NCBI RefSeq assembly: GCF_009914755.1
Contig: NC_060926.1
Reading direction: 5' to 3' (one strand)
Length of the DNA: 64,000 nt
Source: the human T2T-CHM13v2.0 reference genome, Homo sapiens
In this document: in pieces, positions 28,508 through 30,651 of the stretch
How the letters are laid out: every line of letters begins with the position of its first letter
How positions within the stretch are numbered: the first letter of the stretch is position 1
Program-made: the position numbers and the translations under genes
Notes under the pieces: model-generated
Database searches by the model: none
What the model was told of the DNA's origin: nothing
What the model saw: only the letters and a program-made list of their open reading frames with translations

Positions 28508-28522
28508 AAAAATACATATCCT
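28508..28522 (+). repeat. Left TSD of the 28S-L1 chimera (aaaaatacatatcct)
   Basis: Identical 15-mer at 30637-30651. Confidence 0.9.
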
Positions 28523-28793
28523 CGGAATCAGTGGGGAAAGAAGACCCTGTTGAGCTTGAGCTTGACTCTAGTCTGGCACGGTGAAGAGACGTGAGAGGTG
28601 TAGAATAAGTGGGAGGCCCCCGGCGCCCCACTGTCCCCGGGAGGGGGCGGGGCGGGGTCTGCCCGCCTTGAGGGCTGCCGGTGTAATACCACTACTCTGA
28701 TCGTTTTTTTTTCACTGACCTGGTGAGGCCGGGGGGGCGGGGGGCGAGCCCCGAGGGGCTCTAGCTTCTGGTGCCAAGCGCCTGGCCACGCGC
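28523..28793 (+). rRNA. 28S (LSU) rRNA internal fragment; retroposed pseudogene piece, not a functional gene
   Basis: cggaatcagtggggaaagaagaccctgttgagcttg..actctagtctggcacggtgaagagac..gtgtagaataagtgggaggcccccggcg..aataccactactctgatcgttt..gagccccgaggggctct matches domain V of human 28S (PTC flank, uL1 stalk, GC-rich expansion segments). Confidence 0.95.
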
Positions 28794-30636
28794 AGCATTC
28801 TTATACACCAACAACAGACAAACAGAAAGCCAAATCATGAGTGAACTCCCATTCACAATTGCTTCAAAGAGAATAAAATACCTAGGAATCCAACTTACAA
28901 GGGATGTGAAGGACCTCTTCAAGGAGAACTACAAACCACTGCTCAAGGAAATAAAAGAGGATACAAACAAATGGAAGAACATTCCATGCTCATGGGTAGG
29001 AAGAATCAATATCGTGAAAATGGCCATACTGCCCAAGGTAATTTACAGATTCAGTGCCATCCCCATCAAGCTACCAATGACTTTCTTCACAGAATTGGAA
29101 AAAGATACTTTAAAGTTCATATGGAACCAAAAAAGAGCCCGCATCGCCAAGTCAATCCTAAGCCAAAAGAACAAAGCTGGAGGCATCACACTACCTGACT
29201 TCAAACTATACTACAAGGCTACAGTAACCAAAACAGCATGGTACTGGTACCAAAACAGACATATAGATCAATGGAACAGAACAGAGCCCTCAGAAATAAC
29301 GCCGCATATCTACAACTATCTGATCTTTGACAAACCTGACAAAAACAAGCAATGGGGAAAGGATTCCCTATTTAATAAATGGTGCTGGGAAAACTGGCTA
29401 GCCATATGTAGAAAGCTGAAACTGGATCCCTTCCTTACACGCCATACAAAAATCAATTCAAGATGGATTAAAGACTTGAACGTTAGACCTAAAACCATAA
29501 AAACCCTAGAAGAAAACCTAGGCATTACCATTCAGGACATAGGCATGGGCAAGGACTTCATGTCTAAAACACCAAAAGCAATAGCAACAAAAGCCAAAAT
29601 TGACAAATGGGATCTAATTAAACTAAAGAGCTTCTGCACAGCAAAAGAAACTACCATCAGAGTGGACAGGCAACCTACAAAATGGGAGAAAATTTTCACA
29701 ACCTACTCATCTGACAAAGGGCTAATATCCAGAATCTACAATGAACTCAAACAAATTTACAAGAAAAAAACAACCCCATCAAAAAGTGGGCGAAGGACAT
29801 GAACAGACACTTCTCAAAAGAAGACATTTATGCAGCCAAAAAACACACGAAAAAATGCTCACCATCACTGGCCATCAGAGAAATGGAAATCAAAACCACA
29901 ATGAGATGCCATCTCACACCAGTTAGAATGGCGATCATTAAAAAGTCAGGAAACAACAGGTGCTGGAGAGGATGTGGAGAAATAGGAACACTTTTACACT
30001 GTTGGTGGGACTGTAAACTAGTTCAACCATTGTGGAAGTCAGTGTGGCGATTCCTCAGGGATCTAGAACTAGAAATACCATTTGACCCAGCCATCCCATT
30101 ACTGGGTATATACCCAAAGGACTATAAATCATGCTGCTATAAACACACATGCACACATATGTTTATTGCGGCATTATTCACAATAGCAAAGACTTGGAAC
30201 CAACCCAAATGTGCAACAATGATCAACTGGATTAAGAAAATATGGCACATATACACCATGGAATACTATGCAGCCGTAAAAAATGATGAGTTCATGTCCT
30301 TTGTAGGGACATGGATGAAATTGGAAATCATCATTCTCAGTAAACTATCACAAGAACAAAAAACCAAACACCGCATATTCTCACTCATAGGTGGGAATTG
30401 AACAATGAGAACACATGGACACAGGAAGGGGAACATCACACTCTGGGGACTGTTGTGGGGTGGGGGGAGGGGGGAGGGATAGCATTGGGAGATATACCTA
30501 ATGCTAGATGACGAGTTGATGGGTGCAGCCCACCAGCATGGCACATGTATACATATGTAACTAACCTGCACATTGTGCACATGTACCTTAAAACTTGGAG
30601 TATAATAACAATAAATAAAAAAAGAGAAAACATAAA
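28794..30636 (+). mobile_element. L1PA2/3-like 3' ~1.85 kb (ORF2 C-terminal part, 3' UTR, A tail)
   Basis: Near-intact ORF2 ([20 protein letters not shown]...SLIGGN) with one frameshift near 29770; 3' UTR gcattgggagatatacctaatgctagatgacgag (GAG, so not L1HS-Ta). Confidence 0.95.
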
Positions 30637-30651
30637 AAAAATACATATCCT
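30637..30651 (+). repeat. Right TSD of the 28S-L1 chimera
   Basis: aaaaatacatatcct immediately after the A-rich tail. Confidence 0.9.

What the first reader, a model, noticed from the sequence alone, without database searches (positions are those of the whole stretch)
28508..30651. 28S rRNA / L1 chimeric retrocopy inserted as one unit within a single 15-bp TSD
Seen: the TSD aaaaatacatatcct (28508-28522) is followed by ~271 nt of sense 28S rRNA (28523-28793). This joins directly, in the same orientation, to an L1PA2/3-like sequence starting mid-ORF2 (28794) that runs through the 3' UTR and A tail to an identical TSD (30637-30651). The target resembles an L1 endonuclease site (bottom strand TTTTT/AT). 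Established: L1 makes 5'-RNA/3'-L1 chimeras, best known with U6 and also U3, U5, 5S and 7SL, by template switching or RNA ligation before reverse transcription. Those heads are usually full-length small RNAs. Inference: here the head is an internal piece of the Pol I-transcribed large-subunit rRNA (PTC flank, uL1 stalk and adjacent expansion segments), so an L1 RNP captured a cleaved ribosomal RNA fragment in a hominoid germline. I cannot tell whether this locus or this breakpoint class has been reported.
Basis: partly seen in the sequence, partly recalled or inferred. Interest (0 to 1): 0.9.

Follow-up and report, generated by a model that had tools for sequence, protein, structure and literature searches.

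The report
Published 28S rRNA–L1 chimeric retrocopy

Summary
Identical 15-bp target-site duplications lie at 28508-28522 and 30637-30651. They enclose 271 nt of sense 28S rRNA (28523-28793, positions 3902-4159 of a T2T rDNA copy). This is joined, with no filler and no shared base, to a 5'-truncated L1 (28794-30619) that starts at ORF2p residue 740 and ends in an A-rich tail.

It is not new. Law & Burns (Cell Genomics 2026; bioRxiv Feb 2025) describe 18 28S rRNA/LINE-1 chimeras. Their Table S3 lists this locus (hg38 chr2:78701596-78703692, L1PA3) with the same 15-bp duplication and an L1 endonuclease motif.

The 86% identity to 28S is mostly CpG decay (11 of 52 CpG-site columns changed, against 5 of 202 others) plus indels.

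The chrX (L1PA2) and chr1 (L1PA5) chimeras end at the same 28S nucleotide as this one, 4159, the last loop base of a predicted GC hairpin. Two further chimeras share end 4048, and four loci start at about 3673. This favours a pre-cut 28S fragment, though sequence alone cannot separate ligation from template jumping.

Verdict: real, correctly read, already known. Interest is low.

The parts
28508..28522 (+). 5' target-site duplication, AAAAATACATATCCT; preceded by AT, so the cleavage context is AT/AAAA
   Evidence: The same sequence is given in Table S3 of Law & Burns.
28523..28793 (+). Sense 28S rRNA fragment of 271 nt, equal to 28S 3902-4159 of T2T rDNA copy L013. It carries a 6-nt tandem duplication (TTGAGC twice, 28550-28561) and other indels.
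   Evidence: Rfam RF02543, 68.7 bits. blastn 86.2%. Column-by-column classification.
28793..28794 (+). 28S/L1 joint, C|A. It has no filler base and no base shared between the two parents.
   Evidence: The next 28S base is c. The base before the joint in the chrX L1 copy is a.
28794..30619 (+). 5'-truncated L1, labelled L1PA3 in the published RepeatMasker annotation: the ORF2 C-terminal part followed by the 3' UTR
   Evidence: 96.6% to the chrX L1 copy and 92.9% to the chr1 L1 copy. The published L1 length of 1826 bp maps to these coordinates.
28795..30401 (+). ORF2 remnant from residue 740 to the stop (TGA read by eye at 30399-30401), broken by a frameshift near 29790-29800
   Evidence: PDB 8uw3/8sxt ORF2p residues 740-1066, E 7.5e-210. 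Three-frame translation. Sequence.
30620..30636 (+). Degenerate A-rich tail running into the A-run of the 3' duplication
   Evidence: The 17-bp gap between the L1 end and the duplication matches Table S3.
30637..30651 (+). 3' target-site duplication, identical to the 5' copy

Best explanation
One L1 target-primed reverse transcription event in an ape ancestor inserted a two-part RNA template. The L1 endonuclease nicked the bottom strand at TTTT/AT. ORF2p copied an L1PA3 RNA from its poly(A) tail back to codon 740 of ORF2. It then continued without a break into a 28S rRNA fragment, copying it from nucleotide 4159 back to 3902, where synthesis ended or the cDNA was joined to the target. Repair left a 15-bp duplication around the whole unit.

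I think the 28S partner was a pre-existing cleavage fragment whose 3' end lay at 4159, in the loop of an expansion-segment hairpin. It met a broken L1 RNA in one of two ways: RNA ligation before reverse transcription, as RtcB does for U6/L1, or an end-to-end template jump by ORF2p.

Shown: the anatomy, the single duplication pair, the clean joint, and the recurrence of the 28S ends in other chimeras. Inferred: the existence of the fragment, how it was joined, and the dating.

Odds: single-event chimera 0.95; fragment-first 0.6 of the total, split roughly evenly between ligation and end-jumping.
For: **Single event**
- The 15-bp duplication occurs exactly twice in the window, and 0 of 100 shuffles reach that.
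- Both parts are in sense and joined with no filler and no microhomology.
- A poly(A)-type tail is present only at the L1 end.
- The target has an endonuclease-type context. Table S3 scores it 'EN motif: Yes' and 'found by MSA prediction: 1'.

**Pre-cut fragment**
- A genome-wide pattern search looked for the last 28 nt of the 28S piece followed by non-28S sequence. It found 3 places and 0 control hits. All 3 are 28S/L1 chimeras: this one, chrX and chr1. All end at 28S 4159 but are joined to three different L1 positions. Their published labels are L1PA3, L1PA2 and L1PA5.
- 4159 is the last loop base of a predicted perfect 11-bp GC hairpin, arms 4144-4154 and 4160-4170. The Rfam consensus also opens a hairpin at that 5' arm.
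- The chr8 and chr11 chimeras share another end, 4048.
- chrX, chr1, chr8 and chr11 all start at 3671-3677. A chr10 retrocopy with no L1 also starts at 3674.
- Law & Burns independently report frequent starts near 3,636 and name 3,636-4,115 as the commonest region, in Dfam numbering.
- Moldovan et al. 2019 show that RtcB joins a 2',3'-cyclic-phosphate end to 5'-OH L1 RNA. They suggest that endonuclease-cut small RNAs could be joined the same way.
Against: - No orthologous empty site could be examined here. Simultaneous arrival rests on the anatomy and on the published alignment call.
- The hairpin evidence is weak. Both folds are no better than shuffles in this GC-rich sequence (z -1.17 and -1.24; 24 and 25 of 200 shuffles fold at least as well). 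In the minimum-energy fold, 4048 lies at the end of a helix rather than in a loop.
- Recurrent ends could also arise without cleavage, for example from loop accessibility on intact ribosomes or a fixed block to the reverse transcriptase at about 3672.
- This locus starts at 3902, not 3673, so its 5' end is not the recurrent one.
- 2 of the 5 chimeras compared (chr1, chr8) have one extra base at the joint. That is more typical of template jumping than of ligation.
- No data on real 28S fragment ends were consulted.
Confidence: 0.6

Rival explanations
1. Same single event, but ORF2p switched templates internally during target-primed reverse transcription. It left the L1 RNA in mid-ORF2 and landed on an exposed single-stranded loop of intact 28S rRNA, for instance in a ribosome near the L1 particle. 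No earlier cleavage or ligation was needed. On this view the recurrent landing sites reflect loop accessibility, and the recurrent 5' end at about 3673 reflects a block to the enzyme.
For: - Both parts are in sense, and a single duplication pair encloses them.
- The shared ends lie at or near predicted hairpin tips.
- 2 of 5 chimeras have one extra base at the joint, as template switching often leaves.
- Law & Burns and Moldovan et al. both keep template switching open.
Against: - There is no microhomology at the window joint or the chr11 joint.
- Three chimeras end on the same nucleotide rather than being scattered within the 5-nt loop. A fixed RNA end explains this more simply.
- In every case the L1 side would also need an internal exit.
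Confidence: 0.33
2. Two independent insertions that happen to abut: a 28S retropseudogene, and a separate L1 that landed exactly at its 3' end, or the reverse order.
For: 28S retrocopies without L1 do exist, for example the chr10 copy with an A-rich tail.
Against: - The 28S piece has no poly(A) and no direct repeat of its own.
- The only duplication pair spans both parts.
- Four other loci examined here show the same 28S-then-L1 architecture.
- The published alignment analysis scores the two parts as arriving together.
Confidence: 0.02
3. A daughter copy. A transcript that read through an older genomic locus, where a 28S pseudogene already sat upstream of an L1, was retrotransposed. The chimera would then not have formed at the RNA level in this event.
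For: Law & Burns describe 5' transductions and co-opted promoters for other L1 chimeras (abstract and section headings).
Against: - The genome-wide pattern search found only 3 places where this 28S end meets foreign sequence, and each has a different L1 joint. No parent or sibling with the window's joint exists in this assembly within the 2 mismatches allowed.
- The L1 begins at ORF2 residue 740. It has no 5' UTR promoter and cannot be a classical 5' transduction.
Confidence: 0.03

Closest known systems
[quoted passage not shown]
   Same: This is one of their 18 loci. Table S3 lists hg38 chr2:78701596-78701866 (LSU-rRNA_Hsa:3866-4125) with L1PA3 at chr2:78701867-78703692, the duplication AAAAATACATATCCT on both sides, 15 bp, and an EN motif. 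Segment lengths and spacing equal the window's.
   Different: Nothing differs at the locus. My alignments to one T2T rDNA copy add one point. The ends they annotate as 4115, 4116 and 4125 are a single nucleotide. Their two ends at 4011 are also a single nucleotide.
U6/L1 chimeric pseudogenes (Moldovan et al., PNAS 2019, PMC6789731)
   Same: A non-L1 RNA in sense at the 5' side, a variably 5'-truncated L1, one duplication pair and an endonuclease target site. The proposed routes are RtcB ligation or template switching.
   Different: U6 is a full-length small Pol III RNA with a natural 2',3'-cyclic phosphate end. Here the head is an internal piece of a 5-kb Pol I rRNA, and no end chemistry is known for it.
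U3/L1, 5S/L1 and tRNA-half/L1 chimeras
   Same: Recurrently truncated RNA heads whose breakpoints suggest earlier cleavage (Law & Burns passages).
   Different: 5S and tRNA heads are mostly antisense, which suggests twin priming. The 28S heads are 83% sense, and this one is sense.
28S rRNA retropseudogenes without L1
   Same: L1-mediated copying of 28S fragments. The chr10 copy starts at the same place (3674) and ends in an A-rich tail.
   Different: The window's copy has no tail of its own and depends on the L1 part for its 3' end.

Membership tests
L1-mediated RNA/L1 chimeric retrocopy | A non-L1 RNA segment joined directly to the 5' end of an L1, in one orientation, with no tail between them | tested here: met
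   The joint is C28793|A28794. There is no filler and no A-run at the joint.
L1-mediated RNA/L1 chimeric retrocopy | One target-site duplication enclosing both parts | tested here: met
   The 15-mer occurs twice, exactly at the two outer borders, and 0 of 100 shuffles match that.
L1-mediated RNA/L1 chimeric retrocopy | L1 endonuclease-type target and a 3' poly(A) tail | tested here: met
   The target context is AT/AAAA and an A-rich tail lies at 30620-30636. Table S3 records 'EN motif Yes'.
L1-mediated RNA/L1 chimeric retrocopy | Both parts present or absent together in orthologous loci of other primates | not testable with these tools
   No primate genomes are held here. The published Table S3 gives found_by_msa_prediction = 1.
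28S rRNA/LINE-1 chimeras of Law & Burns 2026 | Listed in their Table S3 | tested here: met
   The row chr2:78701867-78703692 carries the identical duplication sequence and lengths.
L1PA3 subfamily | Diagnostic positions of the L1PA3 consensus | tested here: inconclusive
   No consensus library is available. The L1 part is 96.6% identical to a copy published as L1PA2 and 92.9% to one published as L1PA5, which fits an intermediate age. The L1PA3 label is taken from Table S3.
L1 5' transduction | A full-length L1 with its 5' UTR, preceded by flanking sequence from the source locus | tested here: not met
   The L1 starts at ORF2p residue 740. The upstream part is rRNA, not unique flank.
Independent 28S retropseudogene | Its own A-tail and its own duplication pair | tested here: not met
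   Neither is present at 28793/28794.

The most novel reading that the evidence does not exclude
The 28S heads of L1 chimeras may be fossils of discrete rRNA cleavage products. One fragment class would run from 3673 to 4159, with a shorter form ending at 4048. It would be cut after pyrimidines at exposed expansion-segment hairpin tips, leaving ends that RtcB can ligate to broken L1 RNA.

The chimeras would also preserve ancestral ape rDNA variants that concerted evolution has since erased. Candidates are A3964G and the 4104 insertion (shared by the window and chrX copies) and the 4005 deletion (shared by the window and chr1 copies).

The exact, shared end nucleotides and the shared variants are not stated in the parts of Law & Burns that I could read. 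Their supplementary PDFs, which include Figure S5, could not be opened.
Probability: 0.35. Interest if true: 0.45.

Novelty: already known. Interest (0 to 1): 0.2.

Why it matters
As a locus it does not matter much: it is a correctly read example of a published class. The class shows that L1 can recombine with fragments of the most abundant cellular RNA.

The nucleotide-exact recurrence of the 28S ends gives a concrete test. One can ask whether specific rRNA cleavage products, and which end chemistry, feed L1 chimera formation. That bears on the open question of ligation against template switching.

Tried and rejected
**Searches that failed or gave little**
- Rfam over 27500-31500 at E up to 1 missed the 28S piece. 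It appeared only when 351 bases were searched.
- Pfam found no family in either ORF2 translation. The PDB sequence search identified ORF2p instead.
- The DNA search of the genome with the 271-nt piece was swamped by rDNA arrays: 236 candidates, 40 scored, 38 of them on C13. I switched to patterns that forbid the 28S continuation.
- A conserved 52-mer gave 229 hits. Only 100 were listed, and only 2 of those (C1, C11) lay outside the arrays. The remaining non-array copies were not seen.
- The 5'-end pattern gave 5 hits against 2 control hits. One hit (C2:149.8 Mb, L036) has no blastn match to 28S and is chance.

**Ideas rejected or left open**
- I considered that 86% identity meant an older or separate origin for the rRNA part. 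The CpG analysis rejects this.
- I considered that all shared ends sit at hairpin-loop edges. The predicted fold supports this for 4159. For 4048 it is not supported by the minimum-energy fold, although a simple CGGCCC/UGC/GGGCCG hairpin can be drawn by eye. Neither fold beats shuffles.
- The pyrimidine-before-cut pattern (U|C, C|G, C|C) rests on three sites and is not significant.

Full report
**Observation.** The window has AAAAATACATATCCT at 28508-28522 and again at 30637-30651. These are the only two matches in 64 kb on either strand, even with one mismatch allowed. None of 100 dinucleotide-preserving shuffles gave two.

Between the two copies, 28523-28793 is 28S rRNA in sense. A 4-kb Rfam scan missed it. 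A 351-base scan gave LSU_rRNA_eukarya at 68.7 bits, E 3.1e-16, from model position 2392. I took one rDNA 28S copy from the same assembly as reference (L013, 5083 nt, ends set by Rfam). blastn against it places the piece at 28S 3902-4159, 86.2% identical over 275 columns.

From 28794 the sequence is L1. It is 96.6% identical over 1847 columns to the L1 of a chrX chimera and 92.9% to that of a chr1 chimera. The translation of 28795-29799 matches human ORF2p residues 740-1066 of 1275, E 7.5e-210. Pfam found nothing in this part of ORF2. A frameshift lies near 29790-29800. The ORF2 stop is at 30399-30401, read by eye. An A-rich tail runs into the 3' duplication. The target context is AT/AAAA.

**One event or two.** The joint is C28793|A28794. 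The next 28S base would be c, and the preceding base in the chrX L1 copy is a. There is therefore no filler base and no shared base. The rRNA piece has no A-tail and no direct repeat of its own.

I ran a genome-wide pattern for the last 28 nt of the piece, with CpG decay allowed, followed by three bases that are not the 28S continuation. It found 3 places and 0 control hits, each with a different L1 joint. No parent or sibling with this joint exists in the assembly at that stringency. The L1 begins at ORF2 residue 740, so a 5' transduction is excluded. I could not examine ape orthologues.

**Why only 86% identity.** I classified each aligned column against L013.

| Copy | Mismatches / aligned columns | CpG-site columns changed | Other columns changed |
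|---|---|---|---|
| Window | 16 / 254 | 11 of 52 (21%) | 5 of 202 (2.5%) |
| chrX | 13 / 486 | 8 of 87 | 5 of 399 (1.25%) |
| chr1 | 38 / 463 | 29 of 80 | 9 of 383 |

- Seven of the window's CpG-site changes are CpG transitions.
- The window copy also has four insertions and two deletions. One insertion is a TTGAGC tandem duplication at 28550-28561.
- For chr1 I included one flanking base at each end, and both count as mismatches.
- The order of CpG decay (chrX, then window, then chr1) matches the published L1 labels L1PA2, L1PA3 and L1PA5.
- The low identity is therefore decay of a CpG-rich insert plus indels. It is not evidence for a separate history.

**Related loci.** The chrX copy (L014 1633-2123) covers 28S 3672-4159 and joins L1 near the end of ORF1. 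It has a 10-bp duplication, AAGAATTTTT. The chr1 copy covers 3673-4159 and joins L1 64 bases further into the element than the chrX joint. Its flanks share GAATA exactly, or 9 bp with one mismatch.

All three chimeras end at the same 28S nucleotide, 4159. In the predicted fold of 28S 4085-4200 this is the last base of the 5-nt loop of a perfect 11-bp GC hairpin, with arms at 4144-4154 and 4160-4170. The Rfam consensus structure also opens a hairpin on that 5' arm.

Two more chimeras, on chr8 (L033) and chr11 (L020), both end at 28S 4048 and join L1 at two further positions. The minimum-energy fold puts 4048 at the end of a helix, not in a loop. Neither fold beats shuffled sequence: z is -1.17 and -1.24, and 24 and 25 of 200 shuffles fold at least as well.

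The 5' ends of chrX, chr1, chr8 and chr11 lie at 3671-3677. A chr10 copy (L037) starts at 3674, ends near 4063-4066 in an A-rich tail, and has no L1. Of the five joints compared, three are clean (window, chrX, chr11) and two carry one extra base (chr1, chr8).

**Mechanism.** The anatomy shows one L1 target-primed reverse transcription event on a two-part template. Identical 28S 3' ends joined to different L1 positions in elements of three different ages argue for a fixed RNA 3' end, meaning a pre-existing 28S fragment. The shared 5' end, seen also in a copy without L1, fits this.

Such a fragment could be joined to a broken L1 RNA by RtcB if it carried a 2',3'-cyclic phosphate. Moldovan et al. 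2019 showed this route for U6/L1 and proposed it for endonuclease-cut small RNAs (passages read). Alternatively ORF2p could jump from the 5' end of a broken L1 RNA to the fragment's 3' end. An internal switch onto an exposed loop of intact 28S remains possible. Sequence alone cannot decide between these, and the mix of clean and one-base-filler joints does not help.

[quoted passage not shown] I read the abstract and outline and text passages. They report:
- n = 18, with a median length of 269 nt and a range of 50-482 nt;
- 83% in sense orientation;
- frequent starts near 3,636;
- 3,636-4,115 as the most frequently incorporated region, in Dfam LSU-rRNA_Hsa numbering (5035 nt).

I read part 2 of 3 of Table S3 (mmc3.xlsx) and passages of part 1. 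It lists this locus:
- L1PA3 at hg38 chr2:78701867-78703692;
- LSU-rRNA_Hsa:3866-4125 at chr2:78701596-78701866;
- the duplication AAAAATACATATCCT on both sides, 15 bp;
- cleavage AT/AAAA, EN motif Yes;
- found both by proximity and by alignment prediction.

All lengths and spacings equal those in the window. The chrX, chr1, chr8 and chr11 loci are in the same table. In it, 6 of 18 heads start at 3625-3637, 3 end at 4115-4125 and 2 end at 4011. My alignments show that each of these two end groups is a single nucleotide. Their supplementary PDFs, which include Figure S5, could not be read here.

**Verdict.** The locus and the class are already in print, so novelty is nil. The residual interest lies in the nucleotide-exact ends and in variants shared between chimeras.

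**Limits.**
- No primate orthologues and no L1 consensus library were available, and no real 28S end-mapping data were consulted.
- No solved ribosome structure was examined.
- The helix and expansion-segment names used in my notes are recalled, not tested.
- The figure of 219 rDNA copies in this assembly is recalled. It agrees with the 219 forward hits, of which only the first 98 were listed. All 98 lie in tandem arrays on C13, C14 and C15.

Noticed in passing
window 28591 (28S 3964); L014 about 1925: The window and chrX chimeras share an A-to-G difference from the reference 28S. The 37-mer with G occurs only in these 2 places genome-wide. The 37-mer with A occurs 222 times (219 forward, 3 reverse), including every listed rDNA copy. 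This could be an ancestral rDNA variant, a variant rDNA copy, or a recurrent copying error at a modified base.
   Followed up: partly
window 28700-28720 (28S about 4104) and about 28625 (28S 4005): Indels are shared between independent chimeras relative to present rDNA. The window and chrX both carry a G-rich insertion at 4104. The window and chr1 both lack CGG at 4005. These may be fossils of older expansion-segment sequence.
   Followed up: no
window 28550-28561: A 6-nt tandem duplication (TTGAGC TTGAGC) lies inside the conserved core of the 28S piece. It is absent from rDNA and from the chrX and chr1 copies.
   Followed up: no
L037 (G000:C10:50550632-50553666), minus strand, about 1148-1528: A 28S retrocopy without L1 covers 28S 3674 to about 4066, 84% identical, and ends in an A-rich tail. 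It has the same 5' start as the chimeras.
   Followed up: partly
window 27999-28141: Weak Rfam matches to SRP RNA, mir-1268 and mir-3135 lie just upstream of the insertion, all far below their gathering scores. They look like an Alu fragment.
   Followed up: no
window 49461-51307 (-), 22746-23581 (-), 10864-12353 (+): Other L1 copies in the window are 92%, 93% and 71% identical to the chimera's L1 part.
   Followed up: no
window 27500-31500: A point of method: the Rfam E-value scan of 4 kb did not report the 271-nt rRNA fragment, but a 351-base scan did.
   Followed up: yes
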